DNA of 64,000 nucleotides from the NCBI GenBank assembly GCA_000002445.1, contig CM000207.1, positions 2,624,001 through 2,688,000 of the forward strand, in the 5' to 3' direction. The translations under genes were made by a program, and so were the position numbers. This DNA is from Trypanosoma brucei. Lineage: Eukaryota. The notes below the pieces were generated by a model, which was not told the DNA's origin, made no database searches, and was given only the letters and a program-made list of their open reading frames with translations. Positions 21,711 through 43,019 of the stretch are shown piece by piece (positions within the stretch are counted from its first letter, which is position 1; the number at the start of each line of letters is the position of its first letter).

Positions 21711-22002
21711 TAATTCTTATGTAATAAACTAAATTAGAAGATATTAATAATAGAATTGATTTGCAGTTCCATATCACCTTTTTATGTCATGTGCATTTTC
21801 CACCGTCACATACAATTTGCTAAAAAAATTATATTTTTATATTTTTCAAAATTTCACATTTCATCAAAAAGTATCAAAATATATCAAATTCTATAAATCG
21901 TAAAAAATTCTTAAAAAAAAATGTTTAAATTCTAAAATTATACTTTAAACAGAAAAGAAGCAGCAATCAGAGAAAATTTTTTCTTTACAAGGAAACTAAA
22001 AT

Positions 22003-23436: not shown

Positions 23437-23699
23437 ACGACTGCTGCTATTTGTATGAGAAGAACCTTCATCGTCTTTATGACTACATTCGAAAATGGAA
23501 GATTATTTCTTGCCTTGTAAGTCAGTTTATTGAAATGACTGATGCTTTTCTTGCCATCTTTCACATGGTTATGTTGCTTCTGTCAGCAATTGTCATCCAT
23601 AATTCGGTCACAGTGGTGATGGTGGTGTGCGTTTGTTGCTTGTCTACAACTTCTTAGCTCTAAAAAGATCCCCTTCTTTAAATGTACCATCACAATCAG

Positions 23700-24560: not shown

Positions 24561-25139
24561 AGAGATATTGAGCTTAAGAACACTAAATATAATTACAGCA
24601 GTAGTAGTAACATTTTCAAGACATCTAATTTTAAGACTTAAATCACCTATAAACTTTGATATTGTTATATAGGAAACAGAGAAAATTGGAGAAGACTATA
24701 CAAAAAATTCGAAAAAAAGGAAAGATATCAGTTCCGCAACTGTAGTTTCTTTTCAAAGAAACTGTGTTCACATATACAAATAATGCCTTAGCATTGTTAT
24801 GATGCAGCTGGATGTGGTTACTTTTTAAGTGTATACAGATCATCTTTCGCACGAATCCATCTTTTTTCTTTTAGAAGTTAGCATCACTCATACATACTGT
24901 TTCGCGCTATGTTTATTCCGCTTTTCCTTGCATTCCACATAATCCACTCAGTTTGCTATAGAGATTGCAGTAACTACTTGCACACGAAGGTTAAGATATA
25001 CTAAGAATTTTATTAACTTTCTCCGATAACTAACCTGACCGTCCAGTTTCGTTAGAAGATACCTATAACAGTAGCTTTAAAAATAATTTATTACCATTGA
25101 ACCCTTCCACCGTTTTAAGTGCTTCTATTTCTTTCCACT

Positions 25140-25215
25140 ACAATTACTATCATTACTGCTCTCATTATAATATTAAAATAGTCACACTCAAAACATACTA
25201 TTGCTATCACTATAT
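25140..25215 (-). repeat. Degenerate 70-bp repeat, reverse-complement orientation.
   Basis: cattactgctctcattataatattaaaatagtcacactcaaaacatactattgctatcac. Confidence 0.6.
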
Positions 25216-25439
25216 GAATACCCTAATTAATATTCATGATGCAAAAATAACCAAATTAAAATGGCACACATTTTTCATATTCTGTAACATTATTTATTTA
25301 TACCAATAGGTCACTGTCATACCAAAATTTCATATTTTATAGTTTTTCAAAATTTTACTAATTACCATATATTTATGGAAAAGATTTTTAATATATCAAA
25401 TTTTAGAAAATTCTTTCGGGAAGTATAGTTTCATAGGTT

Positions 25440-26871
25440 TTCATAAAATTGAGGAAAGCTGCTTAGAATGCAGCCAAAACTAACGCAGCAAATACCTGAG
25501 GAACAGAACCTCTCAAGTTGCTGGAAACCGACTTTTCATCTTTCTTTTCAGTATCAACTTTGGGAAAGCATCTTTAACCTCAGATTTTTTCTCATCAAAA
25601 TCACAACCTTTTTCTTCTTTGCAGGGTTTCTGTGTTGTATGCTTTTTGCACTCGTCTACAGCTTTTGTTTCTTTCTTTTCTGTTTTTCCTTTCACTTCCT
25701 CGCTGCTGGTGTCGCATTTCGGTACTGCGGGTGGTGAAGTTCCCAAAGCCACAGCCAATGCAACGCCCAGATGGTTATCCTCTTCTAGTTTCTTCAAGTT
25801 TTCAGTTGTTGCTTTTTTCGACTCGTAGTAAGTTGCCGTTTGTTTTTCCGCGTCCTGCCAAACCTGTTTGTTGAAGGTATCTTGGTCGCCGCCGAAAATT
25901 TTGTTGATTTCGTCATCTACTTTTGATGTCAGTGTCCCAGTTATCTCTGTCTCGGCTGGCATTGCGAGTAGCAGTCTCTCTACAAGGTTGAAAAACTGGG
26001 GGTGCCCTGTGCAGCTTTCTCGCACATGGGCTTCTGGGATATTGGTGAGTGCTGAGACGGCGGCGGATATGACTGTATGGTTTTCGTCCAGTTTGTCTTT
26101 GTCCACTCCGGTTAGTTTGATAGTGCCGGCGATTGGAATCTTCGCTGTTGTCCAGCTTTGTGGGCCGCTTGTTGCGGGCGGTGCTGTGTTGTGGTCTATG
26201 TTTAGCGTTACAGTGAAGATGTCGGTGGCGCTTGTGCCGCTGCACGCCACACCGCTTTTCGTGCACACGTGGCTTAATTTGAATCCGAGTTGTGGTTTCC
26301 TTAGCCCTTGTCCTTTTGCTAATGTTTCCACCGATATCGGCGGTGTGTCTTCAGCTGTTTTCGTTGTACACCCGGCTTCGACGTTTGCCGTCAGGCTTGA
26401 CGTTGTGTACACCGCGTCGCCGTAATGGGTGTTGGCGCTGGCGCCCGGTGTCACCGTGTACGTTTTTCCGCTCTGCGGTGCCCTCACTTCAGCGTCGTAC
26501 CCGCTGTACAGCGTGGTTACGAGTTTCAGATAGTGTCGGACAATCGGGCTGTTTTGGCTTAATAGTCCCGTCCAGCCGACTGCGCTATCCTGTGCTATGC
26601 CCGCTAATATCGCAAATTTGGCCTTTTGTATTCCGGAGGTCACTGCCGCGGCAACAGTTAGCTTTTCTGCTGCTTATGCCGACTCCGTCACTCTGCCTGC
26701 TGCCGTGTCTAGCAAGCCGCTTAGGTACTTTATCAGTTCCTGTGCTCGGTGCCTGCAGTTGCAGGGGTTGGTGCAATCCGTGCGTTTTTCTGCCGGCTTT
26801 GTTGCCACCGCAGCTTGGCCTAAGGTTGCAGCGCACGCAACAAGAATAATGCTTGTCAACAAATAGCACAT
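25440..26871 (-). pseudogene. VSG (B-type N-terminal domain) pseudogene with a frameshift between the signal peptide and the body, and no in-frame GPI tail.
   Basis: ORF 26674-26871 has the signal peptide MCYLLTSIILVACAATLGQAAVA. ORF 25513-26643 (376 aa) carries the B-type motifs …QVWQDAEKQTATYYESK… and the CTD cysteines …KAVDECKKHTTQKPCKEEKGCDFDEKK…. Confidence 0.8.
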
Positions 26872-29124
26872 GTGGTTCTTTAAATGTATCCCTTGATGAT
26901 TACGTCCACAGTGGTGTCTGATCTTTAACTAGACTGGAAGCCGAGTTAGTATGCAGTAATTCACCTAGATATTTGTGTATTTCTAAGGTTATTTTAGCGT
27001 AAAATTTTGGTTTTTATCGACTGGTTAATTTCTTGTCGCAGATTAGCTTCCATTTTTAGCTACTTCTTTTTGATGCTGCTTGCAGTGAATATTGGATAAT
27101 TCTGTCTGTTTTTTTGTAGTTTTATATCGTCAGCATACTCTGAGGCTTCGGATTTTTTCTCAATGGACCTGCTGGTTTGGGGCTAGTCAGTTTGATGCTC
27201 GCCACCTTGTAGTTCACTGGCGGCTGCGTCACTGTTTATGCTATATCGTTTGTGTTTAAGCTCTGTGCTCTTTATTCACTGTTATTTAAGCAACCTAGGA
27301 AGTTTTTTGGTTCCGACGTATGTTGAATTTCCTGCCATGACTGATTTTGTCGTTTGCAGTCTCACCGTGAGCGTCTGTTTCAAAATGGTCCCCTCTCCTC
27401 TGAGAAGAAACTTTTCCCAAAATTACGTCTTTTTGCCTTCATTTTTAGCTTTTTCTTTGCCTACATTTTTTGTAAGATAATTTTGTAACTAGCGTCAGTT
27501 TTTGTGGCACATAGAGTTGTCTGATTGGACCGCCAGGTTAACAGGTTGCTTTTTGTTTTTTCAGTTGCCGCCGGTTTTTCGTTGTCCGTCGTTGTTTGAG
27601 CACTTCCATTGATAGTTTTGTGCGAAGTGAGTTTTTCCGCATGTCCTGCCGCATCTCTTATCGTTTGTGATCACTTTTTCTGAGGAAGGTGCCGTTTTGA
27701 CGGTATTTTGTGTCTTGTAAGCTGCCAGTGTGTTGTATTCTCCGTCTTGGTTTGTTGCTAGTCGCGTCGTCTTTTCCAGCTTAAAGAGACGTACAGCGTT
27801 GGATTTTGTCGCTGCGGCTTCTCTTTAAGTTGGCAACGGGGAAGCGGAGTCTAGTAGCTTGTTCGCGTGCCGGATTTCCGTACAAAAGTCACTCGCAGCT
27901 GTTTCTTCCGTTGACCTTCCTACATCGCTGATGGTTAATAACGGAATAAAAATTATCGCTAATTGCGGATACCGTTGGTGGAACCTTTTTTGTAGTTTGT
28001 TATTTGCTAGTGTTCTTCTTCGTCTGTCGATCCTGATGATTTCTTTCCTACTTTCTTACTTTTTATGGGGCTTATTTCTGAATACTGGTTGTCGTTTTTA
28101 CACAACAGCTGAATGGTGCGCCCACGGGCCTATCGTCTTGAATGTTTAGTAGTACCAAAGCAGGGCTATATTATGATCTTCTTCGGCTGCTGATGTGTAG
28201 ATATGAGATGAATTGTGTTTCAGGATATTGGGTTTGCCGTTCAGCTTCTGATTGTGGCATGTTAATCTGTCGTATTACCGTATTGATTAATATTAGTTCT
28301 GCTAGCAGCTAACTAGACGCTGGTGACCCCTCTTCGATGTTTATCTCCTGCTTGATACTCTTGAGCCGCCGTCATTTGCGGCGTCTTTTAGGCCTAAGCT
28401 TGCGATAATCTTTTTCCGAGAAAGTCTTTGTGGTCTGGCTCGAGCCTCACACACAAGTCTTTAGGTTGTGCTTTGTGTCTTCGGTATATTGAATAGCAAC
28501 TTCCACAGGACAATATTACTATGTTTGTAAGAGTTTTTTTACAGTGATATCCTTTTTTTCTAAAATTACATTTATGCTCCTTCCTTATATGCTCTTCTAG
28601 CCGCCCCACCCGTAGAAAACACACATTAAATCTATGAAGTGACACCCTCCATCAGATAGCGGTTCATATCACGATTTGCAATCATAATAAAAACTACAGG
28701 GGTACACAATGTGCAATGCTGCATATATCAATTTTTGAGTAAAATAAGGATCATTATTGTCTCCTGCCCATCTTATTAATAATTTATTATTTTCCTTTCT
28801 TTCTATTTTGTCGTTTCATTCATATTTTTTATCTTCTTTTTCTCTCCAGCTCCTTTTTTTCGAAACATATAGCTAACTCGCTTTGTATGTACACTAGATT
28901 TTGTCTTTACATTGTTATTCACTCAATCATCTTGTCGTATATGATAATACCCATTGTCATGTTTTTGACAAATGGTATACTTTATATTCATATCTTCCTC
29001 TCTGTCTTTCTGCATCCCTGTTTATAATATTCCTTGTGCTCTCCCTTTTTCAATCACTGATTTTCTTTTAACCCTCATCATAATTTTAAATGTCTCTACT
29101 TTTGCTGTTCATTCGTATTTTCCA

Positions 29125-29215
29125 CCACTATTATCATGAAATTAGTATATACACAATTATGATACTCTCATATCATCATGACAATTATTATTATTATTAT
29201 TTTAACCTTAACTAC
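29125..29215 (-). repeat. VSG 70-bp repeat, reverse-complement orientation.
   Basis: attagtatatacacaattatgatactctcatatcatcatgacaattattattattattatttta. Confidence 0.7.
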
Positions 29216-29479
29216 TATCCATAAAATGAACAATACAAACTAACTTAGAATACCAATCATTTTTCACACCGTATTACGCTACTTTTCTACACATTCACCG
29301 CTATAATGCACGGTTTACTAAACTTTTATACCTTAAAATAACTTTGAATTTCCACTAATTTGTACATTTTCATGAAAAACTGTAAAAATGAATCAAATAT
29401 AGCAATTTTATAAAATGTTCTCTAAATCACAAATTACATAATTTTCATAAAATTTGTCAAAACATCCTTTATGATATTT

Positions 29480-30871
29480 AATCATAGAAATAAGTCGAGA
29501 AAAAGAGGAGCCTTAACGACAAAAGAACTGTTACCTGTGGTGTTAGTGTTTTTTTCTTCCTTCTCCCTTTACTTTTATCGTATCTTTAAGTTCGCACTTT
29601 CCGTCTTTGTGTTCGCAATCTTTGTCCTCTGTGCATTTAGTTGCTTCAGTGTTTTCCTTGCATTTTTCTGTTGATGACTTGATTTGTGTCTCGCTGCTTT
29701 TTCCCTGACCTTGTGGGTAGTTCTGTGTCCTCTGAAATTTTGAAAAGCCGGTTGCTACAGCTGCTGCTGCTTGAGTGTCTCCGTTCAGCTGTGATATGTC
29801 GACAGTCTGGTCGTCTTTTCCACTGTAGTACGTCGCTTTTGTTTTTTCTATTGCTTGCCATATCTTGGTTTGAAACTCTGTCCCATCTTCTTTGCCATAG
29901 TATTTCCGGAGCGCTGCGTCGAGTGCCGCTTTGCTGGTTCCGGTTAGATCTGATACCGGCTTGTCGCTGACAGCTGTTCGGTACACCAGTGTATTGAAGT
30001 CACTTGAGGCCGTGTATGTTTCTAGGGCTGTGAGGTCTCTGTGGCTCAGTAACGCCGCAGCTGCCTGAAATGCTGCGCTGTGCTTGGCTTGTAGTTCTGA
30101 CGTTGTCAAATGTGACAGCTTGATGTTAGTTATGCCTATTTTTTGGTGGATTTTCCCGGTTATTTGTCCGCCCGCATGTGTGCTGGTTGTGTGCTTGAAG
30201 TGAGCGCCGATCGTTACTTTGTCGCTTGCTACGTTGTTGCAGGCGCCACTGCCCCCTTGGTTCGTGCACTTTAGTGTTGTTTCCATTGTCAGTTCAGTTA
30301 CCTCGATTCTCTGATCGAAAGTGAAGACTAAGTCCTCGATCGGTGTTTTGTCATCGTCTTCCGTGTTCCCGCAGCTGCTTCGCGTTTTCTTGTTGTGGTT
30401 GTTAGCTGCAAACGTGGCACTTACTAGCGCCGAAACTGCAGCTTGCGTTATAACAGCAACGTCGTACGCGGCAGCTACATAATTGAGTTGGTCGTATAGT
30501 ACAGCTACTTCCTTTAGGCGTTGCAGGTGATCTTTAACTTTGGGGAGTCGTGTTTCGACCGTCCTTGCGTACTGTGCTGCTTTCGTGACTGCTGTCGCTA
30601 GCAGGGGTGTTAATGCTCTTTTCAGCTCTTTGTTTCCGTTTGCAATTCCCAGTAAGAGTTTTTCGATTGTGGCGGCGTCCTTTTGTAAATTCTTTTGTGC
30701 CGCTTCAGCTGCAGCTCTCAGCCTGTCTGCGAGTTGAGCTATTCGTGCAAGGCACTTGCACGGACAGCCGCACTGCTCTCGGGCAGCTGATTGTTTTACT
30801 GCGCTTGCCGTTGGTGCTCCGAGCAGCCACACCGTGTACAGTATGATTGGTGTCGGTTTCGGTGCGTTCAT
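29480..30871 (-). CDS. Near-intact VSG (B-type), 442-aa ORF with signal peptide. The GPI-signal tail is in the +1 frame.
   Basis: MNAPKPTPIILYTVWLLGAPTASA…TKIWQAIEKTKATYYSGK…CKENTEATKCTEDKDCEHKDGKCELKDTIKVKGEGRKKH*. Translating the minus strand of 29480-29545 in another frame gives TTGNSSFVVKAPLFLDLFL, so there is one frameshift near the C-terminus. Confidence 0.85.
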
Positions 30872-32595
30872 TGCTGATTTTTTTCGGTTACTTTTTCTTT
30901 TGGTTATTGAGAGCTTCTTTGGGTTAGGTTTCTTTTTTTGTTTCCTTCCGTGGTGTGATTGGGAAAGTGGTGCTTCGGCGGTCTTGGTTAGAACAGCCGC
31001 CGTTACCTGGCCGCTGGGGCCATAAGAGAATCCTGCTTAGTGTATGGTGTCTCTGGCTCGTTTCTGTTGGCAGCTGCTGCTCGTATTGGTTATAAGAGTT
31101 CAGCTAGCTTTCTTATGTTGATGTGCCGGCTCCGGACTTGCAACGAGTCACTTGCGTTTCTTTTTGTTAGATTGGTAAACAATTAGCACAGTTATTTGAA
31201 TATAGCTGTTTTAATCGCTTCCTTAGGAATGTAGCTTGTCTAATGGATAGGCGTGTTATCACAATCAATGGCGACGTTGTAACTTTCTGAATTCTTAGCC
31301 AACTAGGCATTGGTTGATAAATTAAGTAAGACCGTGGATAATAACTTAAATAAGTCAAAGGAATTTCATTTTATCCCGTTCTCGCCGGATACACTTCTAT
31401 TGAGCTGGTTTTGTAGCTGAGAATCACTGGTGTGAAGACCGTTTCCTGCGTGCACCGGTATTACTCCGGCGCAAAAATAGTTGCAGGCTTGTTGTAGAGA
31501 CTATTTCAAAGGTGTTCTAGCGTCGCTGTTTTATGCCTTTGTGGTTTAAGCGACTCCAGATAGAAGATTAGCACAATCAGTTATTTATTTATTGCTAGCC
31601 AAAAGACCAAGCAGCGTTACAAGTAAACACGCCATATATAGGCTACTATAGTTAGTGATGTTGTTGGTTTGTTGGCTTCACTTGTTGACCAGTCTCAGTT
31701 TTTCCACAATTGTAGGTAGCTCTGCCGTTTTAATTGCTTGAATTATCTTTTGTGCACGATCCCTGGCCAAATGTAAGCAAACTATTGTATAAAGTTGTGC
31801 AGCACTGTATTTTTTTCAACGTACATGAAAAATAAAAGAAAGAATGCTGATTTGGCTAATTTTATTGTTTACGGTAAAAATAACGCAGTTAACACCAGAA
31901 ATATCAACTTTTAAATCTGTACTGTACAATGCTATATCCGTATATAAAAGATATATCATTTATGGTCAGTGCCTGCTTCTGTTGCTGTCCACCCCCTGTT
32001 GCAGCGATGGTTCTACAGTAATAATATAACGATGACACTTCGGTCATACGCATGACCTTGCTAATTGTTTAATACCTGTCGTGCCTGACCCTCATAGTAG
32101 TTTATAATGGAAATGTCTTTGGCTTTTTATTCGCCTTTTTGGTTTTATCGATGCCACCTCAGTGCGCATACTTATGTGAACTATACATTCCTTAAATGAC
32201 CTCAACCTTTTTCTATTGAGCAAGCATGGAATCGGAAAAGTACCACTATTGTTCATTTTTACTTTATAAAGCTTTGCTGAGGGGTTCAATCTCCCGGTTA
32301 CTCTCCATGAGAATTCTTCGAGTTTGCACATTATTCAGAGACCCCTTCTTTTGTTAATACCATCTGTAACGTAAAAGATGTACTAAGAGTGCAATCTGCA
32401 CTTTGCGTATACCTTGTTTTCGACTAATTCATCTCCATGTTTAAGATAACATACATCGTCATATTAGTGTTTGATACTGTATATATTCCCTCCCCATATA
32501 TCGCTCTTCTAATTATTTCTCCCCTACTATTACTACAAGTGCATCTATTTTATCATTATCATACACATTTTGCACTTGCCCTATTCCAATATCAG

Positions 32596-32765
32596 TACAC
32601 ACACACACACAGAACATTTTTCTCTTATTATTATTATTATTATTATTACTATTATTATTACTATTATTATTATTCTCATCCTCATTACTGCTCTTATTAT
32701 AATATTAGTATAGTCACACTCACAACATACTACTATTACTACTATTTCTAATACTCTCATACCCT
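32596..32765 (-). repeat. 70-bp repeats with a long (AAT)n tract, reverse-complement orientation. They form the outer end of the left inverted-repeat copy.
   Basis: …ttattattattattattactattattattactattattattattctcatcctcattactgctcttattataatattagtatagtcacactcacaacatactactatt…. Confidence 0.8.
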
Positions 32766-33901
32766 AACTAATATCCGTAAAATCGACAAAAACTAAAAAA
32801 AAAGAATGTTGCTTATTAGTACACGCATTTCATACACTAACATCATACTTTACACCTATAGACTACTATTATATTAAAATTTTGTATTTTTAATATCTTT
32901 ATCATTTACACATCTTCATAAATTTTAAAATTGAGCAAAAAATTCACTAGAAGTTTCAAAATACCACACAACTCATAAAGACAATTATAATCAGAAATAA
33001 TTATTATTTACAAGGAACCTGTAGTCTTTGAAAGCATTATTTTCCTATTTTCAATTGCTAGTGCAATCTCTCTGTTGGTTATATTTGCATTTTGAAGAAG
33101 TTTGCGTCCCTTCAGTTCCTGTTTGTATTGCTGTTTTCTATATTGCTTTCGTGTTAGATTTGCAGTTTTTTCCATCCTTCTCACTTTTTTAAAATTTTCT
33201 TCGTGCCTTCGTGGGAGTTTCCCCCCACTGGCGCGACCATCAGCCATCACCGTAGAGCCCTGAGATGCTATCGGTCTGGCGACTGTGGCAGAGTCTCCCT
33301 TTTTTATTCAGCCTAACACACTCTCTATAATTTTTGTTGTAGCTCCGCAGTTGAACGGAATACAGCAGATGGGGCGAGAAGCCACCCAACCCGGACTCTC
33401 CCAAAGATGTCAATTAGCAACCCTTTTGTTTTTATTTTTGTTATTCGTTTATTATTCTCTCCCCCTCTTTCTGTTTTTGTTGCTTGTTGACTGCATACCC
33501 CCTCTGTCTCTGAGGGTGTCTGGACTATTCCTGCGTCCGGTGCTTTTCCTGCTAGCTCCACACTCGGCAATAAGGGGGAAAGTTGCAGAAAGGAAAGTGG
33601 GTTGTATAACTGTTACATTAGGGGAGGACTTCACATGCGGCCGGTTCCGTTCAACCGCAATGAGAAATTGCGCCAGCCTTTTAGAGAATCATACATCCTG
33701 CACACACACACCTTATACAGCTAACCTGACACGTAGTTCCTTCAAACCGGGACAGCTCATCAGGTGCAGCGACGTTTCTTCGCAGTCGCCGCGTTGTCTG
33801 GTAACAGCGCGCTCTACCTTCATACCGTGCATCTTATTTTGATGGAGGGTGAGGCCAGTTTTGCTAGCACACTGCCTTCAGCATGTCGGGCACACCAACA
33901 T
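32690..33901. repeat. Left copy of the ~1.2-kb inverted repeat: 70-bp repeat, VSG 3'-end fragment with 3'UTR, and the first ~650 bp of the ingi.
   Basis: This span is the reverse complement of 38403-39615. Plus-strand ORF 33285-33842 (…LFLFLLLVDCIPPLSLRVSGLFLRPVLFLLAPHSAIRGKVAERKVGCITVTLGEDF…) is nearly identical to minus-strand ORF 38469-38873. ORFs 33008-33250(-) and 39061-39303(+) are the identical 80 aa. The match ends at about 33901 on the left and 38403 on the right. Confidence 0.9.
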
Positions 33902-36103
33902 GGATGTGTTTGTATGCGGGGAATCAGTGGCACACAATTTTGTGCTTTTGCTGCATTTAAGCTCGACTCCCTCACCTTTGTGGAAAGCCTTACAGTGTCG
34001 GATGAGAGAATCCCTGCAACTGAGCACTTTTTGACACACACCACACTGCACCTCTCCTTTCCCAGTGGCGTCAACGTTTTCCTCACGGGCACGCTTACGA
34101 GGGAATTGCACCACCACTACGGTACCGTCCTCCATCACTATGCTCTTATGTTTGAATTTCTTGTGTAGTGACCGGGAAGAGCGTGTACCGAAGCTCGTCT
34201 CGCACAGGTCACATTGAAACGGCAGCTTCCGTGTATCCTGAGAGACTGGCGCTGCTGGGGCTCTACCATCTCCTTGCAATGAGTCCTCGTTCTCTCGCCC
34301 CCTTTTCACGCGGCAACTACCGCTACCTATGCCATGTATTGTTCTAAGGTGGTGTAGTAGTGGGCCTGGTACTGCGAATTTGGAGGCACAGATGGTACAA
34401 TGAAGCACCTGCGGTCTCATCGGGACTCGTGTGCTCGATGGTAGAGGAACGATCGCCACCACTGGAGGGGGCTCCGGGGGGATATCCACTGCGGGTGTTG
34501 CATCGCCGTATTTGATCCTCCGGAGGGCATCAGCTCGCACAAAGCCATGTTTGTTTACCATGTGCGTTACAGTACTCGAGCGGCATTGGTATGTGGCATC
34601 ACATTCCGTACATTTGGTCGGTTCGGAGGTTCTCTGAAGAGTGCGTGTCGCAACAGTTGGGACTGTTTGTATTGTTGGCCCTATCGCTGCATGTTGTGGG
34701 TTGCACCATCGGCACTGTGGAGGCACACTCGGGTTGATCTTTCGCAACATCCATCCATAGTGTCTTGAAGACCCAACCCGAAAGCGTGCCAGTGCTGTTT
34801 CTTCTTCCCTCGTCAGTTCTTCTTTATGTTTTGTTGGAAAGTGGTTGCCCGTGATACCAAACCTATGAGTGTTCTCATGGACTTCTTCCGACCTAAGCAC
34901 TCGCTTCGCATAAGCAATGATGTCGGGGATCCATGTATCTCGCAACTGTGGTAAATCAGCGGCCTTTTTGGCCATTTCATCACAAACCTCATTCCGTTTC
35001 ACGCCACAATGGCCAAACACAAATTGCAGTCGGATACGTATCTTCCTTCTCTGAACTTGAAGCAGAAGCCTCCATAGTCGTCTTAGAATTGGGTCCGTTA
35101 CGGCTAGGGTGCCTGTCTGCAGTGCTGTTAACATTGACAGCGAGTCAGAGAAGATGGACAACCTGCTAGGTGTGCTTCTGTATGCCGGAAGCCATTTCAG
35201 CAGCCGTTGCAGTTCTATCTCTAATGCTACGCATTCCGCTCTGTAACTGCATGAGAGTTCCCCTGCTCCGGTTTTGGGTGCACAAATCAGCGTGTTGTTT
35301 CTATAGAGCAGGGCAGCTGCTCCGGACTTCTCACCGAGGGACACGGATCCATCAGTCCACAATTCGTAGTGCTCTCGCCGCGGTGGCTCCTTCCCCCTCC
35401 GTGCAAAATGTCGTTCAATCCACTTTTCGGAAGCCTCCCTTTTGACATCGTCAGGGTCATCAGCGCACACAGGCTTTATCTGCGTGTGAAATAGCGGTCG
35501 GCAGCTGTGGCGGAGCGTCGATGTCTCCAGTGGGTGCTCGCGTGGCTCAATGTGGAGAAGAGGGTACGACAGCATGATGCGGGAATGTTGGGCTCTGACT
35601 GGGTGTTTGCTGTGGTATACTTCTTCAGCACTGCGCCGCAAACATCCGCCTCGTGACTCACACATCAGCATGAATTTCATGCTGTGCACAAGAGTGGCCG
35701 TCTTGAGTGGCAGGAGGTTTGCTTCCAGCAGAGAGTCCTCTTTGCGCGTCCCATGCGGTATGCCGGCTATGATGCGACTGGCTTTGTGTTGTGCTGCTGC
35801 AAGGAGGTCGCGACTTCGTTCCGAAGCGTCCCAGTACCATACCTCAATGCCATACATGGTGTGTGCCTGTACGAGTGCTAGATAAAAAGCTCTCAGCACT
35901 TGTCGTCTTGGCCCCCATGTAGAAGCTGAGATGGCTGCTATCTGCAGTAGTCGGAAGTCCATCTTGCGTCTCGTTTCGGCCGCATGTGTTGCCATCCCCT
36001 GCAGACGCTGGAATGTTACTCCGAGAAGCTTCGGTGTCCTGTCAGCTCCTATTCTTTCGCCGTCCAGTTGCAATGTAAGGGGATGGCGCTCTGTACACCC
36101 CAA
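33878..36103 (-). pseudogene. ingi ORF, C-terminal segment: RT C-terminus, RNaseH-like region and C2H2 zinc fingers.
   Basis: Overlaps the upstream segment by about 60 nt in a different frame, so a frameshift lies near 36042-36103. Three C2H2 fingers are present. The stop codon at 33878-80 lies inside the inverted-repeat junction. Confidence 0.85.
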
Positions 36104-38462
36104 GAGTGTGCACTTTGTTTTTCGCTACGTTGACAGACATAAAGTACTCTTTTGACCACTGTAACACAACGTTTAGGCCGCATTGCAGTGTGTGGTTGAT
36201 GACATCCCTCTCTGTGTGCCTCGCAAGTAGCGTTAGGTCGTCTGCAAAGAATCCGTGCTGCAGTAACGGCACTTCTGCAAGGCGTTGGCTCAACGAGTTC
36301 ATGACAATAATGAACATGATTGGGCCAAGGACAGTTCCTTGTGGCACTCCTCGCTCAAATGTTCTGCTTCTGGAAAGCTTCTCCTTGAATCTCACTCTGC
36401 CAGTTCGGTTACTCAGAAATGATACGCACCACTTCACAATGTAGGGTGATACCTTCATTCTGTGCATTTCCCTCGCAATTTTGTCGTGGTCTACTGTATC
36501 GAATGCCTTCGCGTAGTCAACGAATACAGCACCCGTACGAGATTGGTGCGTGGGACGGCAGAGGGCAGCGCGGACGTGCAGGAGTTGTTCGAGTGTTGAG
36601 CATCCGGGGCGAAAGCCTGATTGCTGCGGCGTCAGCTGGGACTCAACAGTGTCTCTATGCCTCGCGGCAATTATGCGCTCCATGACTTTGCAGAGACAGC
36701 TCGTGAGCGTCACAGGCCTGTAAGAATCGAGGTCCTCCGCCTTTTTTCCGGCCTTCAGGATGGGGATGATAACACCAATCTTCCATGCAGGCAGCACGAC
36801 TCCCGTTCGTAGGCTCTCATTGAATAGCCTTAGAACAACATTCAGCGCTGTTCTGCCGAGATATTGCAGTGCCTCGTTGTATAAGCAATCAGGTCCGGCT
36901 GCGGATCCACTCGGAAGTAGTTTGATCGATCTCCGTAGTTCAGCCATCGTGATGGGACTGAACTCACTCGCTATCGTCTTTATGGGTGCTGGTGGGTGTG
37001 AGTCGGGGTGCCTTCTTGCACGGGACGAGTACAGTTTACTGAACCTCTCAGCTTGACGGTAGTCCGTGATGGCCGCGTTATCAACAAGTACCGCCAGTGT
37101 GGTTAGTGGTCGTGGCGCATATACCTTCTTGACAATGTGCCAACTGCAGCGGTCTGACACCGCAAGTCTGGAGCATAGCGTTCTCCATCTCTTCTTTGTG
37201 GTACGGTCCAGGATCTGCTTACGCGTGGCTACCAACATTTCCCTTCGGTGGGAGGGTCCGCATCCAGCGATCTCTTCATCGAGTTTAGTGAGCGTTGGTG
37301 TCCAATGTGGTGGCGTTGCTCTGCAGCCACGGGGGACGAACATCTTCGTCGCAATGCGGATGGCGGAGCTCAATTTCTGTTCCAGGGTGTTGACGTTCTT
37401 CTCTCTACCAATTTTCCTGCAGAGCTCGTCAACCTTGAGACGGAAATTCCTCCAGTTAGCTTTTAGCCATACGTACATGGGCATTCGAGGCCGCGTGCAA
37501 CTCAGTGCATCTGTGTCGTCTCCAACGATAACGTCGAAAAATATGTTATGGTGATCGCTATCGGGAGAATACAGCGATGTCCACGTGTACACTGTGCAAT
37601 TCCTTGACAGTGTCACATCAAGGGTAGATTCCCCGTGGTGGCGCGCGTACCTGGTGCACTCACCAGTGTTGCAGACCAGAAACTGGTTGTCAATGCACCA
37701 CTGTGTGAGGGTTTCACCCTTGGTATTTGGTGGGCTCGTGCGATCCCATGCCAACGCGTGTGCGTTAGCGTCTGCACCGATGAGCTGGGCACCGTCAGTT
37801 GTCAGAAGCGTATCTAGGTCAGTTGCCGTGAAGGTGTGTTTTGGTGGGATGTATGCCGACGTGACAGTCAGCGCCGTTCCACGTGCAAGGTGAATTGTTG
37901 CATGCACTTGTTCAATGCGACCAACAACGGCCATACCGGTCTCGACTAGTAAGTCCTCCCTCACTAGTATTGATACACCACCTCCTTTGCAGTTACGAGC
38001 TATTCCGTGATGTTGGTAGCCAGCAACGCTAAAGCAAGCCTCCTCTCCAAGCGTCATCCTTGTCTCGCTCAACAGACAAAAGGCGATCCGCTCATCAACA
38101 AGGGTTTTGTGGAGTGCTAATCTCTTTCCTTGAGATAGCCCGGCGCAGTTCCACTGCATCCCGCGCAACGACGGGCCGGGATTCTCTTCCACATCACCGG
38201 ACAGCAGCATCTTAGTGCGGATGATACTGCTGATGGCACGCTTTGACGTGCCCAGGGACCGACAAATGAAAAACGGTGTCCCAGCAAGACGCTGCTGATC
38301 CCTGTGCTGTATCATCGGGGAAAGCCAAGAGGCAGCAGTGTTTCCCATGAAAGGAACGCTGCTAGCTCTTGGCTTCCCCCGATGATACGGGGTACTGGAT
38401 CCTGGCACCACGTTGAGGTGCCTGACATGCGGAAGGCAGTGTGCTAGCAAAACTGGCCTCAC
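36042..38462 (-). pseudogene. ingi ORF, middle segment: 2A-like peptide, AP endonuclease and reverse transcriptase.
   Basis: …TKMLLSGDVEENPGPSLRGMQWNC… is a 2A-like D(V/I)ExNPGP motif encoded at about 38173-38199. Endonuclease and RT motifs are as listed for the element. Confidence 0.9.
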
Positions 38463-38468
38463 CCTCCA

Positions 38469-38873
38469 TCAAAATAAGATGCACGGTATGAAGGTAGAGC
38501 GCGCTGTTACCAGACAACGCGGCGACTGCGAAGAAACGTCGCTGCACCTGATGAGCTGTCCCGGTTTGAAGGAACTACGTGTCAGGTTAGCTGTATAAGG
38601 TGTGTGTGTGCAGGATGTATGATTCTCTAAAAGGCTGGCGCAATTTCTCATTGCGGTTGAACGGAACCGGCCGCATGTGAAGTCCTCCCCTAATGTAACA
38701 GTTATACAACCCACTTTCCTTTCTGCAACTTTCCCCCTTATTGCCGAGTGTGGAGCTAGCAGGAAAAGCACCGGACGCAGGAATAGTCCAGACACCCTCA
38801 GAGACAGAGAGGGTATGCAGTCAACAAGCAACAGGAACAGAAAGAGGGGGAGAGAATAATAAACGAATAACAA
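38469..38873 (-). pseudogene. ingi ORF, N-terminal segment, separated from the next segment by an in-frame TGA.
   Basis: This 134-aa ORF is in the same frame as ORF 36042-38462. A single TGA at 38469-38471 intervenes. Confidence 0.8.
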
Positions 38874-39060
38874 AAATCAAAACAAAAGGATTGCTAATTG
38901 ACATCTTTGGGAGAGTCCGGGTTGGGTGGCTTCTCGCCCCATCTGCTGTATTCCGTTCAACTGCGGAGCTACAACAAAAATTATAGAGAGTGTGTTAGGC
39001 TGAATAAAAAAGGGAGACTCTGCCACAGTCGCCAGACCGATAGCATCTCAGGGCTCTACG

Positions 39061-39450
39061 GTGATGGCTGATGGTCGCGCCAGTGGGGGGAAACTCCCAC
39101 GAAGGCACGAAGAAAATTTTAAAAAAGTGAGAAGGATGGAAAAAACTGCAAATCTAACACGAAAGCAATATAGAAAACAGCAATACAAACAGGAACTGAA
39201 GGGACGCAAACTTCTTCAAAATGCAAATATAACCAACAGAGAGATTGCACTAGCAATTGAAAATAGGAAAATAATGCTTTCAAAGACTACAGGTTCCTTG
39301 TAAATAATAATTATTTCTGATTATAATTGTCTTTATGAGTTGTGTGGTATTTTGAAACTTCTAGTGAATTTTTTGCTCAATTTTAAAATTTATGAAGATG
39401 TGTAAATGATAAAGATATTAAAAATACAAAATTTTAATATAATAGTAGTC
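39061..39450 (+). pseudogene. VSG 3'-terminal fragment (last ~20 codons and 3'UTR) abutting the ingi 5' end. A mirror copy lies at 32860-33250 on the minus strand.
   Basis: ggaaaataatgctttcaaagactacaggttccttgtaaataataa closely resembles the end of the VSG at 45757-45804 (ggaaaaatattgcttgcaaagattacggttttcttgtaaataataa, i.e. …CKDYGFLVNNK). It is followed by a VSG-3'UTR-like block ttgctcaattttaaaatttatgaag (compare ctcaattttatgaaaattatgaaac at 63107). The 80-aa ORF upstream has no cysteines, so only the extreme 3' end is VSG-derived. Confidence 0.6.
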
Positions 39451-39559
39451 TATAGGTGTAAAGTATGATGTTAGTGTATGAAATGCGTGTACTAATAAGC
39501 AACATTCTTTTTTTTTAGTTTTTGTCGATTTTACGGATATTAGTTAGGGTATGAGAGTA

Positions 39560-39690
39560 TTAGAAATAGTAGTAATAGGAGAGTGTTGTGAATGTATATA
39601 CGAATATTATAATAAGAGCAGTAATAATAGTAATAATGATAATAATAATGATAGAAAGGGGTTGTGAGTGTGTTTTATTATTATTGGGAG
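39560..39690 (+). repeat. VSG 70-bp repeats, forward orientation.
   Basis: aggagagtgttgtgaatgtatatacgaatattataataagagcagtaataatagtaataatgataataataatgatagaaaggggttgtgagtgtg. Confidence 0.85.
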
Positions 39691-40634: not shown

Positions 40635-42215
40635 ATGCACACCGCACTAATTTGCGCGGTATTACTTACAATGGCGATGGTGTTGCGACAGCAGGCACAA
40701 GGTGCCGTGAAAGACAACGAACACGGCGGTGATTGTGCCGCCCTTTGTGGCCTCATCCAATTTGCCGAACCAAATACGCCAGCTATCAGCCTTCCTCAAG
40801 AGATAACAGAAATAGCTGACGAACTGTTGGCAGTGAACCTGAGCATGAGCGAAGCTGCACTTCAGCAACTAGTAACAAAGCACAAAGACAAGAGCTGGGA
40901 TGACATTCCAGCCAGCGACAAACCAGCCGCACAACCTTACAAGGAGCACTGGCAGCACTGGCAAAAGTTGGCAGCAGACCCAAAACCGGAAACTGTAAAA
41001 TTCAAACTAGAGCAGTTCAGAAAAGTCAGTCAAAACACCATGGCAAAAAACAAATTTCATCTTATAGCTGACGCGGCGTTGGAGTTAGCGACAGAGGCAA
41101 AAATGCTACTGCAGAAGAAAACCAAAACGGATATAGACACAAAACTAACAAAAGCACTAAATGGCAACAATGCACCCACAAACACGTTCACGTTTTCAGG
41201 CAAGACCCGATCGCAACTGTGCGGAACTGGAACGACAACACCTGGAGAACAAGCCGGAAAGGCGTTATTGGTTGACCTTTTGTGCATTTGTGCGGGTGCC
41301 AATACAGATACCACAGCAGGCAAAAGCTGCTGCAAGGGATGCGAAACAAACCCAAACCACGATGAGTGGCAACCAGCTACAAACGCCAAACTACGAGCCG
41401 AACACATAGCCAAGCAATGCCCAACCACAAGGGCAACAGCAGATAAGAGCACAACAAAGCTCCACCACCTGCTAGGAGATTTCTATACGCAAGTAAACAC
41501 GGCAAAAGGCACAGGACAAGAGATGAAATACGCCCTCGGAACTGTCGGCGGCAACGGAAACGACGGTTGCACCGGCAAGGTAGGAAGCACCAACAACGGC
41601 AGATGCGTCAAGTACACGGACAACAGCATTCTTAAGGGGACACCGCAACTTGACTGGGTGCAGAACCTCATCGACGCCGCTGCCGACTATGACGCAAGGA
41701 CAGACAACATGAACAAGATACAACGGATAGCGGATAAAATGGAGGTACTAAACAAAACCGCAACAGCATTGCTTTGGGAACAACAGCCAGTCCCAATCCT
41801 CCAAACAAAAGCGGCAACAACTACAACTCATCAAACAGCAGAGGAGACAAAACAAGAATGTAAGGCGATAACGAAAGCAGCTGACTGCAACAGCAATGGA
41901 AACTGCAAATGGACCAAACCAGACGTAAAAACAGGAACTCACTGCGAATTAAATACGACAACGAGCGAACAAGCAGCCCAAACAGGCGGAGGAGCTGCAG
42001 GAGCAACCACAACTGTAAAATGCTCTGATTATGGCACGAAAGACAAATGCGAAGAAGTCAACAAAGGAAAAGACAAACCTGTCTGCGGCTGGAGAATAGG
42101 CAAAGATAATGAAGATGATAAAGGTACAGAAAAATGCCGTGATTCCTCTATTCTACCAAACAAACACTTCGCCCTCAGCGTGGTTTCTGCTGCATTTGCG
42201 GCCTTGCTTTTTTAA
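40635..42215 (+). CDS. Intact VSG, 526 aa, with signal peptide, N-terminal domain, Cys-rich C-terminal domain and GPI-anchor signal.
   Basis: Begins with MHTALICAVLLTMAMVLRQQAQG and ends …CKAITKAADCNSNGNCKWTKPDVKTGTHCELN…CSDYGTKDKCEEVNKGKDKPVCGWRIGKDNEDDKGTEKCRDSSILPNKHFALSVVSAAFAALLF*. It is a single uninterrupted ORF. The 16-mer TGATATATTTTAACAC lies at 42276-42291 in the 3'UTR. A 70-bp repeat lies about 1 kb upstream. Confidence 0.92.
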   Translation: MHTALICAVLLTMAMVLRQQAQGAVKDNEHGGDCAALCGLIQFAEPNTPAISLPQEITEIADELLAVNLSMSEAALQQLVTKHKDKSWDDIPASDKPAAQPYKEHWQHWQKLAADPKPETVKFKLEQFRKVSQNTMAKNKFHLIADAALELATEAKMLLQKKTKTDIDTKLTKALNGNNAPTNTFTFSGKTRSQLCGTGTTTPGEQAGKALLVDLLCICAGANTDTTAGKSCCKGCETNPNHDEWQPATNAKLRAEHIAKQCPTTRATADKSTTKLHHLLGDFYTQVNTAKGTGQEMKYALGTVGGNGNDGCTGKVGSTNNGRCVKYTDNSILKGTPQLDWVQNLIDAAADYDARTDNMNKIQRIADKMEVLNKTATALLWEQQPVPILQTKAATTTTHQTAEETKQECKAITKAADCNSNGNCKWTKPDVKTGTHCELNTTTSEQAAQTGGGAAGATTTVKCSDYGTKDKCEEVNKGKDKPVCGWRIGKDNEDDKGTEKCRDSSILPNKHFALSVVSAAFAALLF

Positions 42216-42275
42216 ACCAAATTTCCCCCCTCTTTTTAAAAAACTTTGCTAAAATTTTTGCTACTTGAAAACTTC

Positions 42276-42291
42276 TGATATATTTTAACAC
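42276..42291 (+). promoter_or_regulatory. VSG 3'UTR 16-mer element.
   Basis: Exact TGATATATTTTAACAC. Further exact copies are at 45917-45932 and 49118-49133. The reverse complement is at 8893-8908 and 18780-18795. Variants are at 63163-63178 and around 52410. Confidence 0.85.
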
Positions 42292-42433
42292 CTAAATTAA
42301 GCCGAGTTTTTTTGTTGTTTGTTAAGTTTGAGATTCTGTAAAAAATATTTTCTGTTTTTCTGGCAACTAAAATTTTTTTCTTTTTCCCGTTTTTTTTTAT
42401 GTGCAGGAGGTGGTAAATAGACGGGGGAGGTAG

Positions 42434-42463
42434 TTAGGTAGGATTAGGGTTAGGGTTAGGGTT
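42434..42463 (+). repeat. Interstitial telomeric repeat tract: degenerate TTAGGT/AGGA followed by TTAGGG x3.
   Basis: tagttaggtaggattagggttagggttagggttaa, with the G-strand reading 5'→3' on the plus strand, i.e. pointing away from the upstream VSG. Confidence 0.85.
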
Positions 42464-43019
42464 AATTTTACTCTAACGATTTTTTTTGATTTTCTTTCAT
42501 TTAATTGTTTTTGTTTTTTTTGGTTTTCTTTTTTTTTACAATACGTTGCTAATATTTAAATTTTTTTAAAGTGATGCAGCGGCTGTTCTGTTATGAGGAT
42601 CTTAACCCTTATTTGACCCTAGCGTAGCGGCAGCTTTTTTTCCACTGACGCCGTCAACTCGGTTTTATTTGTCCATTCGCGGCGTCGCCACGACTTGTTT
42701 TTTACGCTTAATTTTTTTCGATTCTTTTTAATTTTTATTTTAACCTTTTAATTTTTTGAGCGACAGCAGAAACATGAGTTTTCCACATTTTTTAGCTTTT
42801 TGAATTATTTGAATTCTTTTATTTGTAGCTTTGTTAAATATATATTTTTAAACGGCTTGCCGGTTTTTTTTCAAAGCAGTTGGCCACCTTATTCGTTAGC
42901 CAGCCATCTTCAATTAATTTTTTCCTATATTCGTTATCATTAGCCAGTGGCACCATCAACGCCCATATTACGGTTTCGAATTTCATCCATACAACTTACG
43001 AAAGAGATCTCTTTAGAAG

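What the first reader, a model, noticed from the sequence alone, without database searches (positions are those of the whole stretch)
32690..39615. Palindrome-like strand-switch: a degenerate ingi bracketed by a ~1.2-kb inverted repeat built from 70-bp repeat, VSG 3' end and ingi 5' end.
All VSG cassettes left of 31 kb are minus-strand and all right of 39 kb are plus-strand. Exactly at the switch lie two copies of the same ~1.2-kb segment in inverted orientation, 32690-33901 and 38403-39615, enclosing about 4.5 kb of ingi coding sequence. Each copy runs from a 70-bp repeat, through a VSG C-terminal/3'UTR fragment, into the first ~650 nt of the ingi. The two copies encode identical 80-aa ORFs and near-identical 134/185-aa ORFs. 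The outer boundary lies in 70-bp repeats, the usual VSG gene-conversion boundary. The inner boundary lies inside a retroelement. This is not how ingi or RIME termini are organised, since those are direct repeats. It points to an inverted duplication or fold-back rearrangement, for example template switching during break-induced replication, that created or sits at a divergent strand-switch region. Such a structure could form a large hairpin or cruciform. It could also act as a recombination hotspot or a transcription boundary within a silent VSG array.
Basis: seen in the sequence. Interest (0 to 1): 0.75.

Follow-up and report, generated by a model that had tools for sequence, protein, structure and literature searches.

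The report
Fold-back duplication at an ingi retroelement
Where two Trypanosoma brucei VSG gene arrays point away from each other, the last ~700 bases of a full-length ingi retrotransposon plus ~460 bases of the VSG-pseudogene DNA behind it have been copied in reverse onto the element's head; this looks like the scar of a break repaired by snap-back priming and finished in a 70-bp repeat, which is a known kind of rearrangement.

Summary
The inverted repeat is real. BLAST arms are 32716-33903 and 38408-39595. The near-identical core is 32733-33889 / 38422-39578, 1157 nt with 5 mismatches. It sits exactly at a divergent VSG strand switch.

The arms do not hold the ingi 5' end. The ingi is one full-length minus-strand element, 38436 to 33195 (5242 nt). 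Its 5' end is fixed by the Pr77 hallmark. Its 3' end is fixed by colinearity with T. theileri elements and by published RIME primers.

The left arm is native. It holds ingi nt 4548-5242 plus 462 nt of degenerate VSG C-terminal/3'UTR flank, ending at a 70-bp repeat. The right arm is an inverted copy butted onto the ingi's 5' terminus.

At the joint, ingi nt 1-16 are overwritten by the reverse complement of the zinc-finger codons. From nt 17 the sequence is canonical. That zinc-finger site is the best inverted match in the whole element to ingi nt 1-29 (19/29). The copy stops at the first base of a 70-bp repeat unit.

Best reading: a break at the ingi's 5' border was repaired by microhomology-primed fold-back synthesis and captured in a 70-bp repeat. 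No independent assembly could be found, so an artefact is unlikely but not excluded. This is a new member of a known kind, of moderate interest.

The parts
1..32655 (-). Left VSG array. Cassettes are on the minus strand. The nearest VSG-like ORF is 29543-30871.
   Evidence: 16-mers on the minus strand. VSG_B, Trypan_glycop and Trypan_glycop_C domains on minus-strand ORFs. The 442-aa ORF looks like a VSG by eye.
32656..32732 (-). 70-bp repeat unit upstream of the left VSG. It forms the outer border of the left arm and is only about 85% like its counterpart on the right.
   Evidence: Matches other 70-bp repeats in the window. Mismatches and a 2-nt indel cluster at 32707-32732.
32733..33194 (-). 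Native 3' flank of the ingi: a degenerate VSG C-terminal domain plus 3'UTR fragment (the outer part of the left arm).
   Evidence: Translation shows a VSG C-terminal-like frame, and 54 nt match the end of VSG 44257-45804. It is 100% identical to 39117-39578.
33195..33889 (-). Native last 695 nt of the ingi (nt 4548-5242): the end of the zinc-finger ORF, the 3'UTR, an internal A-rich tract at 33422-33445, and the RIME 3' half. This is the inner part of the left arm.
   Evidence: The ORF continues ..SMLVCPTC*RQCASKTGLTLHQNKMHG. T. theileri protein P0002 ends ..LVCPTCGRQCV. It is colinear with T. theileri L003 and L004 through to the poly(A). The RIME-LAMP primers map in the sense orientation.
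33195..38436 (-). Full-length ingi retrotransposon, 5242 nt, with APE, RT, RNase H and C2H2 zinc-finger domains. It carries one frameshift at about 36042-36103 and a TGA stop at 33878-33880.
   Evidence: Pfam domains. ORFs. Pr77 alignment. Published T. brucei ingi Pr77 consensus. The length lies within the published 4736-5419 bp range for long ingi-clade elements.
38408..38436 (-). Inner joint, covering ingi nt 1-29. Nt 1-16 (38421-38436) are overwritten by the reverse complement of the zinc-finger codons. Nt 17 onward is canonical. The crossover lies at nt 16-19 (38418-38421), with a shared CAC.
   Evidence: Nt 1-16 match the consensus at 8/16 and the left arm at 14/16. Nt 17-79 match the consensus at 60/63 and the left arm at 15/63. 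The consensus nt 1-29 matches the reverse-complemented zinc-finger site at 19/29, the best inverted partner in the element.
38422..39116 (+). Inverted copy of ingi nt 4548-5242 (the inner part of the right arm).
   Evidence: The RIME primers map in inverted orientation relative to the adjacent ingi 5' region.
39117..39578 (+). Inverted copy of the VSG C-terminal/3'UTR flank (the outer part of the right arm). It ends at the first base of a 70-bp unit.
   Evidence: first mismatch at 39579. Unit start GGAGAG taken from the tandem units at 43590-43720 and from the read.
39578..39653 (+). 70-bp repeat unit upstream of the right VSG. This is where the copy tract was resolved.
40635..42465 (+). First plus-strand cassette: an intact VSG (526 aa), the 3'UTR 16-mer at 42276-42291, and (TTAGGG)x3.5 at 42444-42465.
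   Evidence: Pfam VSG_B plus C-terminal domain. 97% identity to T. brucei VSG 352. 16-mer. Telomere repeats.

Best explanation
**Starting state (shown).** A full-length ingi sat in the minus orientation inside a VSG pseudogene. Behind it came the VSG C-terminal/3'UTR remnant and then a 70-bp repeat.

**Proposed event (inferred).**
1. A DNA break arose at, or just upstream of, the ingi's 5' border.
2. After resection, the 3'-ended strand carrying the complement of ingi nt 1-29 snapped back onto the same or the sister strand, about 4.5 kb inward. It paired with the zinc-finger-coding site, which is the best inverted match to those 29 nt in the element.
3. The poorly paired last 16 nt were trimmed.
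4. Synthesis then copied 1157 nt: the ingi's last 695 nt and 462 nt of flank.
5. On entering the 70-bp repeat, the new strand carried a 70-bp repeat in the opposite orientation. It paired with the 70-bp repeat of a plus-oriented VSG cassette. That either closed the break or went on as break-induced replication.

**Result (shown).** The product is the present structure: a 1.16-kb inverted repeat around the 4.5-kb ingi body, at a divergent strand switch.

**Nature of the feature (inferred).** It is a repair scar, not a device. Its likely consequences are flip-flop inversion of the ingi body by recombination between the arms, and hairpin RNA if the region is read through.
For: **The repeat and its sharp edges**
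- The inverted repeat is present and both ends are sharp.
- There are 0 mismatches over 688 nt (32733-33420) and 5 over the 1157-nt core.
- Similarity drops to about 80% within roughly 25 nt at both ends.

**The left arm is native**
- The ingi ORF runs into it.
- The zinc finger LVCPTCGRQC is conserved in T. theileri.
- Two T. theileri elements are colinear with it through to their poly(A) tails.
- The published RIME primers map in the sense orientation.

**The ingi 5' end is at 38436**
- This follows from the alignment to L1Tc Pr77 and to the T. congolense, T. grayi and T. theileri elements.
- It also follows from the published T. brucei ingi consensus.

**The joint**
- Nt 1-16 match the consensus at 8/16 but the reverse-complemented zinc-finger site at 14/16.
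- Nt 17-79 match the consensus at 60/63.
- The zinc-finger site is the top-ranked inverted partner of consensus nt 1-29 in the 5242-nt element: 19/29, with the next best at 17. Only 4% of sampled 29-mers in the element have a partner that good.

**The outer end**
- The copy ends at the first base of the 70-bp unit.

**Local event, not a large palindrome**
- The two arrays share only generic VSG and 70-bp matches, so they are not mirror images.

**Context from the literature**
- T. brucei lacks NHEJ, uses microhomology for end joining, and uses 70-bp repeats for break-induced replication (PMC12137147).
- The ingi endonuclease recognises a motif just upstream of resident elements, and tandem insertions occur there. 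This gives a reason for breaks at the 5' border (PMC3820030; PMC8190864).
Against: - There is no read-level or second-assembly confirmation. All look-ups of proteins encoded in this window were negative.
- Two differences between the arms fall inside the 16 resynthesised nt, against 5 in the other 1157 nt. This needs either error-prone synthesis near the switch or later mutation.
- The position of the break at the ingi border is inferred, not shown.
- No full T. brucei ingi reference was available. The 3' end rests on T. theileri colinearity, the primer mapping and the element's length.
- The window cannot show whether the plus-strand array was already there.
Confidence: 0.6

Rival explanations
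1. The joint formed during retrotransposition. While this ingi was being inserted, the completed first-strand cDNA had its 3' end complementary to ingi nt 1-29. That end snapped back on itself at the zinc-finger site and self-primed. Synthesis ran through the cDNA's 5' end into the target DNA, up to the 70-bp repeat. Recombination in the 70-bp repeat then healed the end.
For: - It explains directly why the joint lies at the element's very 5' terminus.
- It explains why no upstream target-site duplication or VSG N-terminal half is present.
- The same microhomology and trimming logic applies.
- Self-priming of cDNA by reverse transcriptase is classical knowledge (from memory, not tested here).
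Against: - The ingi differs from the family consensus at 3/63 positions in nt 17-79 and carries a frameshift and a stop, whereas the arms differ by only about 0.5%. This suggests the element is older than the duplication. The argument is weak, because the arms could be homogenised by gene conversion and defective copies can be mobilised in trans.
- It requires synthesis to continue 462 nt into duplex target DNA.
Confidence: 0.15
2. There were two separate ingi insertions. A 5'-truncated ingi (about 710 nt) in a plus-strand VSG pseudogene happens to lie head-to-head against a full-length minus-strand ingi in a paralogous VSG pseudogene. Gene conversion later made the shared parts identical.
For: - 5' truncation is common in LINE-like elements (general knowledge).
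- VSG pseudogene C-terminal ends are a repeated family.
Against: - It needs the truncated copy to abut nt 17 of the other element exactly.
- It needs both copies to have the same 462-nt flank with 0 mismatches.
- It needs the conversion to stop exactly at the joint and at the first base of the 70-bp unit.
- It does not explain why ingi nt 1-16 are replaced.
Confidence: 0.07
3. It is an assembly or library artefact, such as an inverted chimeric join or a misplaced repeat copy.
For: - The region is repeat-rich subtelomeric DNA.
- No independent assembly was found.
Against: - The arms are not identical: they show 5 plus 2 substitutions.
- The joint has only about 3 nt of exact overlap, so an assembler would not create it by overlap.
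- Both ends fall at biologically meaningful sites: the best microhomology partner and the edge of a 70-bp unit.
- There is a 4.5-kb spacer rather than a spacer-less palindrome.
Confidence: 0.08
4. One reading: a degenerate ingi is bracketed by copies of its own 5' end.
For: None, once the strands were assigned.
Against: - The Pr77 hallmark lies at 38436 on the minus strand, at the inner edge of the right arm and not inside the arms.
- The arms carry the RIME 3' half and the zinc-finger end.
Confidence: 0.01

Closest known systems
Fold-back (snap-back) inverted duplications with a spacer, primed at short inverted microhomology after a break. These are described in yeast, in human inverted-duplication chromosomes and in cancer genomes (from memory, not checked in the library).
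   Same: - Two inverted arms surround a unique spacer.
- One arm is native and contiguous with the spacer.
- The other arm joins the far end of the spacer at a microhomology.
- Sequence distal to the break is lost.
- Substitutions are in excess next to the joint.
   Different: - The copy tract is only 1.16 kb. It does not run to the chromosome end as a palindrome but exits through a dispersed repeat (the 70-bp repeat) into a differently oriented gene array.
- The break point coincides with a retrotransposon's 5' terminus.
VSG gene conversion and break-induced replication bounded upstream by 70-bp repeats (PMC12137147, PMC4858185).
   Same: - A 70-bp repeat serves as the homology at one boundary.
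- The adjacent cassette (70-bp repeat, intact VSG, TTAGGG) has the shape of a telomeric donor.
   Different: - No VSG was replaced here.
- The other boundary is a microhomology inside an ingi.
- The copied DNA is inverted.
Long near-identical inverted repeats of T. brucei that yield siRNAs: IR1-IR7, 422-10,011 bp (PMC3447711).
   Same: - The size class is similar and arm identity is at least 99%.
- There is a kilobase-scale spacer.
- The host is T. brucei.
- There is potential to form hairpin RNA.
   Different: - No listed repeat has this length, so this one is probably not in that list.
- This one is made of ingi/RIME and VSG-pseudogene sequence in a silent array.
- siRNA production was not tested.
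L1 'twin priming' 5' inversions.
   Same: An inverted retroelement segment is joined to the rest of the element at a microhomology.
   Different: - The inverted segment here is the 3' end, not an upstream part.
- It duplicates sequence that is also present in the normal orientation.
- It drags 462 nt of non-element flank with it.
- No target-site duplication brackets the whole structure.
Normal ingi/RIME organisation and tandem ingi-RIME arrangements (PMC3820030).
   Same: The element itself is a standard ingi with Pr77, a 2A motif, APE, RT, RNase H, a zinc finger and the RIME 3' half.
   Different: The extra copy of the 3' half is inverted and sits at the 5' end. It is not a direct tandem separated by a target-site duplication.

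Membership tests
ingi (Tbingi) non-LTR retrotransposon | Pr77 / 79-bp signature at the 5' end | tested here: met
   Window 38436 to 38358 on the minus strand matches the published T. brucei ingi consensus at 60/63 for nt 17-79. Nt 1-16 are overwritten.
ingi (Tbingi) non-LTR retrotransposon | APE endonuclease, RT, RNase H and a C-terminal C2H2 zinc finger on one strand, with an N-terminal 2A motif | tested here: met
   Pfam hits to Exo_endo_phos, RVT_1 and RNase_H, with a weak hit to zf-C2H2_4. DVEENPGP is present in the ORF.
ingi (Tbingi) non-LTR retrotransposon | Length of about 5.2 kb, with the 3' end equal to the RIME 3' half followed by an A tail | tested here: met
   5242 nt, inside the published 4736-5419 bp range. 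The RIME-LAMP primers map in order and in sense orientation up to 33199. Only a short A run (GAAGAAAA) marks the end.
ingi (Tbingi) non-LTR retrotransposon | 12-bp target-site duplication and the ingi4 upstream motif | tested here: not met
   The upstream flank is replaced by the right arm, so no duplicate of the 12 nt after the tail is present upstream of 38436. This is expected if the 5' flank was lost in the rearrangement.
Microhomology-primed fold-back inverted duplication | Inverted arms of near identity around a unique spacer | tested here: met
   The core is 1157 nt with 5 mismatches. The BLAST arms are separated by 4504 nt; between the two cores lie 4532 nt.
Microhomology-primed fold-back inverted duplication | One arm contiguous with the spacer in the ancestral arrangement | tested here: met
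   The left arm is the native ingi 3' end plus flank.
Microhomology-primed fold-back inverted duplication | A single novel joint at a short inverted (micro)homology | tested here: met
   The crossover lies at ingi nt 16-19. The partner site is the best inverted match to nt 1-29 in the element, at 19/29.
Microhomology-primed fold-back inverted duplication | The structure is present in the organism's DNA (reads or PCR span the joint) | not testable with these tools
   No reads are available, and no other assembly was found.
L1-type twin priming | The inverted part consists of element sequence only, and the whole insertion is flanked by target-site duplications | tested here: not met
   The inverted copy includes 462 nt of VSG flank, and the outer borders are 70-bp repeats.
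siRNA-producing long inverted repeats of T. brucei | Small RNAs map to the arms | not testable with these tools
   No small-RNA data were available. The length does not match any of IR1-IR7.
Divergent strand-switch region | Genes on the two sides point away from each other | tested here: met
Divergent strand-switch region | Chromatin marks of transcription start regions (H2A.Z, H4K10ac and similar) | not testable with these tools
   No epigenomic data were available.

The most novel reading that the evidence does not exclude
Fold-back priming may be a general way for a broken VSG array to be rescued when its 70-bp repeats face the wrong way. Copying back through the nearest cassette boundary would give the broken end a correctly oriented 70-bp repeat. 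That repeat could then invade a telomeric or array VSG donor and be extended by break-induced replication. Each such event would create a new divergent strand switch in the subtelomere. Breaks made by the ingi endonuclease beside resident elements would be a recurrent trigger. The TTAGGG tract right after the first plus-strand VSG would then be a relic of such a healing event.
Probability: 0.12. Interest if true: 0.65.

Novelty: new member of a known kind. Interest (0 to 1): 0.35.

Why it matters
- **A base-level reconstruction.** If the structure is real in the parasite's DNA, it shows base by base how a silent VSG array was rearranged.
- **Three elements in one event.** It combines three things that matter for trypanosome genome plasticity: a retrotransposon border as the break site, microhomology use in an organism without NHEJ, and the 70-bp repeat as the exit point.
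- **Strand switches in VSG arrays.** It offers a concrete and testable route by which these can arise or be remodelled.
- **Possible hairpin RNA.** It adds an ingi/RIME-containing inverted repeat that could feed the RNAi pathway.
- **Limits.** It does not reveal a new kind of element or mechanism.

Tried and rejected
1. **My own first reading.** I rejected it after three results:
   - The real Pr77 sequence was found in PMC1874656 and PMC4748587.
   - T. theileri colinearity showed that this motif is the sense-strand 3' end.
   - The RIME primers confirmed the same orientation.
2. **A T. brucei ingi reference from the protein database.**
   - Both ingi queries returned only T. theileri, T. congolense, T. 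vivax and T. grayi relatives.
   - Those loci were used instead.
3. **Independent assemblies of the locus.** Five exact-protein look-ups were all negative: two intact VSGs, two versions of the ingi ORF and a joint-spanning ORF.
4. **Homology search with the first plus-strand VSG.** It gave 97% identity to T. brucei VSG 352 but no contig.
5. **Rfam search of 32000-40200.** It returned only weak miRNA-like hits on the 38305-38393 hairpin.
6. **Native inverted repeats in T. theileri elements.** No comparable 5'/3' inverted repeats were found.
7. **A large palindromic origin of the two arrays.** This was rejected because there is no mirror synteny.
8. **A conserved hairpin downstream of Pr77.** The consensus fold from four species was weak.


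Full report

Yes for the repeat and the strand switch.
- The repeat finder gives arms 32716-33903 and 38408-39595: 1188 nt, 99% complementary, with 4504 nt between them. BLAST extends the match to 1252 nt at 98%.
- Base-by-base alignment shows that corresponding positions sum to 72311.
- The core, 32733-33889 / 38422-39578 (1157 nt), has only five substitutions: 33421, 33433, 33476, 33477 and 33501. There are none between 32733 and 33420.
- At both ends, identity falls to about 80% within roughly 25 nt and then stops.

The strand switch is supported by several lines.
- The VSG 3'UTR 16-mer occurs five times on the minus strand up to 21.9 kb and four times on the plus strand from 42.3 kb.
- AT skew changes sign near 38 kb.
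- VSG Pfam domains are on minus-strand ORFs on the left and plus-strand ORFs on the right.
- The first plus-strand VSG is 97% identical to T. brucei VSG 352, so the organism is T. brucei.

**2. What the arms are made of**

The ingi ORFs lie on the minus strand. One is 806 aa with APE and RT domains. The other is 741 aa with RNase H and a weak C2H2 zinc-finger match. The 2A motif DVEENPGP is also present.

*The 5' end.*
- The 5' end of L1Tc/ingi-clade elements is the Pr77 hallmark. The L1Tc sequence is printed in PMC1874656. The T. brucei ingi consensus, CCCTGGCGATGCCGGCCACCTCAACGTGGTGCCAGGGTCCAG..., is in Additional file 1 of PMC4748587.
- That hallmark aligns to window 38436 to 38358 on the minus strand, as do the 5' ends of the T. 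congolense, T. grayi and T. theileri relatives. Homology between species starts exactly there.
- So ingi nt +1 is at 38436, at the inner edge of the right arm.

*The 3' end.*
- Reading the minus strand into the left arm, the ORF continues ...SMLVCPTC*RQCASKTGLTLHQNKMHG... This is a C2H2 finger.
- A T. theileri ingi-like protein ends ...LVCPTCGRQCV.
- Two T. theileri elements are colinear with the left arm's minus strand. The order is zinc finger, 3'UTR, an internal A-rich tract (33445-33422), a further ~230 nt, and then their poly(A) tails.
- The published RIME-LAMP primers (PMC4358998) map consistently.
  - All 'sense' primers (F3 in the 2A region at 38207-38186, then F2, B1c, LB) fall on the minus strand in the ingi 5' part and the left arm.
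  - All 'antisense' primers fall on the plus strand. B3 is at 33199-33221.
  - In the right arm the orientations are reversed.
- The ingi therefore ends at about 33195 and is 5242 nt long. This is within the published range for long ingi-clade elements (PMC3820030).
- It has one frameshift near 36042-36103 and one in-frame TGA at 33878-33880.

*Composition of each arm.*
- The left arm is native DNA. It is the ingi's last 695 nt (33195-33889) plus 462 nt of 3' flank (32733-33194).
- One frame of the flank reads like a decayed VSG C-terminal domain (...KCKYNQQRDCTSN.K.ENNAFKDYRFLVNNNYF). 54 nt of it match the end of VSG 44257-45804 at 83%.
- The flank is followed by a 70-bp repeat and the next minus-strand VSG.
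- The right arm is the same 1157 nt in reverse, sitting directly against the ingi's 5' terminus.
I made the same mistake at first (see Tried and rejected).

**3. The two borders of the copy**

*Inner border*.
- Against the published T. brucei consensus, ingi nt 17-79 in the window match at 60/63, but nt 1-16 match at only 8/16.
- Those 16 nt match the reverse complement of the zinc-finger codons in the left arm at 14/16.
- Nt 17-29 match the consensus at 13/13 and the left arm at 10/13.
- The crossover is therefore at nt 16-19 (38418-38421), with a shared CAC.
- With the consensus nt 1-16 restored, I scored the first 29 nt of the element against every inverted position in the 5242-nt element.
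  - The zinc-finger site (sense positions 4534-4562) is the single best partner, at 19/29. The next best is 17.
  - Only 4% of sampled 29-mers in the element have any inverted partner that good.
- Of the two arm differences inside the 16 nt, one is the left-arm TGA. The right copy keeps GGA (Gly), as does T. theileri (GGT). The other is Pro (left arm, and T. theileri) against Leu (right arm).

*Outer border.*
- The tandem 70-bp units at 43590-43720 show that a unit begins GGAGAGTGTTGTG....
- In the right arm that unit starts at 39578, and the first mismatch between the arms is at 39579.
- Inside the unit the two sides are only as alike as any two 70-bp repeats.

*Beyond the arms.*
- The two arrays share only generic 70-bp and VSG-end matches. 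The one exception is a 237-nt stretch. They are not mirror images.

**4. Mechanism**

Shown:
- One arm is native.
- There is one novel joint, at a microhomology that is the best inverted match of the element's 5' terminus.
- The 16 poorly matching terminal nt have been replaced by template sequence.
- The tract ends at the edge of a 70-bp unit.

Inferred:
- A break arose at or just upstream of the ingi's 5' border.
- After resection, the 3' end folded back, or invaded the sister strand in inverted register, at the zinc-finger site.
- The mismatched tip was trimmed.
- Synthesis copied 1157 nt.
- The nascent strand now carried a 70-bp repeat in the plus orientation. It paired with the 70-bp repeat of a plus-oriented cassette.

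This fits what is known of T. brucei repair. The organism has no NHEJ, uses microhomology for joining, and uses 70-bp repeats for break-induced replication (PMC12137147).

A reason for a break at this spot is that the ingi endonuclease recognises a motif just upstream of resident elements, where tandem insertions occur (PMC3820030; PMC8190864). That link is inference.

The (TTAGGG)x3.5 tract about 230 nt after the first plus-strand VSG gives that cassette the shape of a telomeric donor. This is compatible with healing by break-induced replication but does not prove it.

**5. Rivals**

a. *Snap-back of the first-strand cDNA during insertion of this very ingi.* This explains the terminal position of the joint even better. 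However, the element looks older than the duplication: it differs from the consensus at 3/63 positions and carries two disabling mutations, whereas the arms diverge by about 0.5%. I give it 0.15.

b. *Two independent insertions plus gene conversion.* This needs several coincidences. I give it 0.07.

c. *Assembly artefact.* The arms differ at seven positions. The joint has about 3 nt of exact overlap. Both borders are biologically meaningful. No independent assembly could be found, though. I give it 0.08.

**6. Consequences**

All of these are inferred.
- A 1.16-kb inverted repeat can mediate inversion of the 4.5-kb ingi body without loss of sequence.
- Read-through transcripts would fold into a long hairpin. 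T. brucei long inverted repeats are known siRNA sources, and ingi is the main siRNA class (PMC3447711). This repeat's length matches none of the seven listed there.
- Cruciform extrusion across a 4.5-kb spacer is unlikely.

**7. Comparison, novelty and score**

- The structure works like a microhomology-primed fold-back inverted duplication. It meets the features I could test.
- It differs in being short and in exiting through a 70-bp repeat into another VSG array.
- It is not twin priming, because flank DNA is included and there are no bracketing target-site duplications.
- I rate it a new member of a known kind, with interest 0.35.
- It is a well-resolved example of subtelomere remodelling that specialists would like to see confirmed with reads. 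It is a single, unverified locus and not a new mechanism.

Noticed in passing
window 42444-42465 (+): There is an interstitial telomere repeat tract, (TTAGGG)x3.5, about 230 nt downstream of the stop codon of the intact VSG 40635-42215. The array continues beyond it. The cassette (70-bp repeat, VSG, TTAGGG) looks like a former telomeric VSG cassette.
   Followed up: partly
window 24307-24543 and 57089-57325: This is the only non-generic match between the left and right arrays: 237 nt at 91% identity, in inverted orientation. Its content was not examined.
   Followed up: no
window 38309-38388 (ingi nt 49-128): An 81-nt imperfect palindrome lies just after the start of Pr77. It gives weak miRNA-like Rfam hits. 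The T. grayi element looks palindromic at the same place, but a four-species consensus fold was weak.
   Followed up: partly
window 33878-33880 versus 38429-38431: The native ingi copy has a TGA stop inside its last zinc finger (CPTC*RQC). The inverted copy keeps GGA (Gly), which is also the state in T. theileri (GGT). The duplicate therefore preserves the older state of that codon.
   Followed up: yes
L003 8810-9545 and L004 9395-9705 (T. theileri); window 33903-33195: T. theileri ingi-like elements share the 3'-end layout of the T. brucei ingi. The order is last zinc finger, 3'UTR, an internal A-rich tract (ATAACAAAAATAA.AACAAAAGG, nearly identical between the species), about 230 nt that resemble the RIME 3' half, and then the poly(A) tail.
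   Followed up: partly
window 29543-30871 (-) and 25513-26643 (-): Two long ORFs (442 and 376 aa) look like VSGs by eye. The 442-aa one has a signal-peptide-like start, and both have Cys-rich C-terminal stretches. Neither has a Pfam VSG hit, even at E<=1.
   Followed up: partly
The 80-aa ORF runs from the ingi 3' end into the VSG remnant out of the VSG frame. The 185/134-aa ORFs are antisense to the ingi 3' region. The 80-aa ORF has no Pfam match. All are most likely chance ORFs.
   Followed up: yes
protein database searches: No T. brucei ingi protein was returned for either ingi query. Only T. theileri, T. congolense, T. vivax and T. grayi relatives were found. T. brucei ingi copies appear to be absent from that protein collection.
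   Followed up: no
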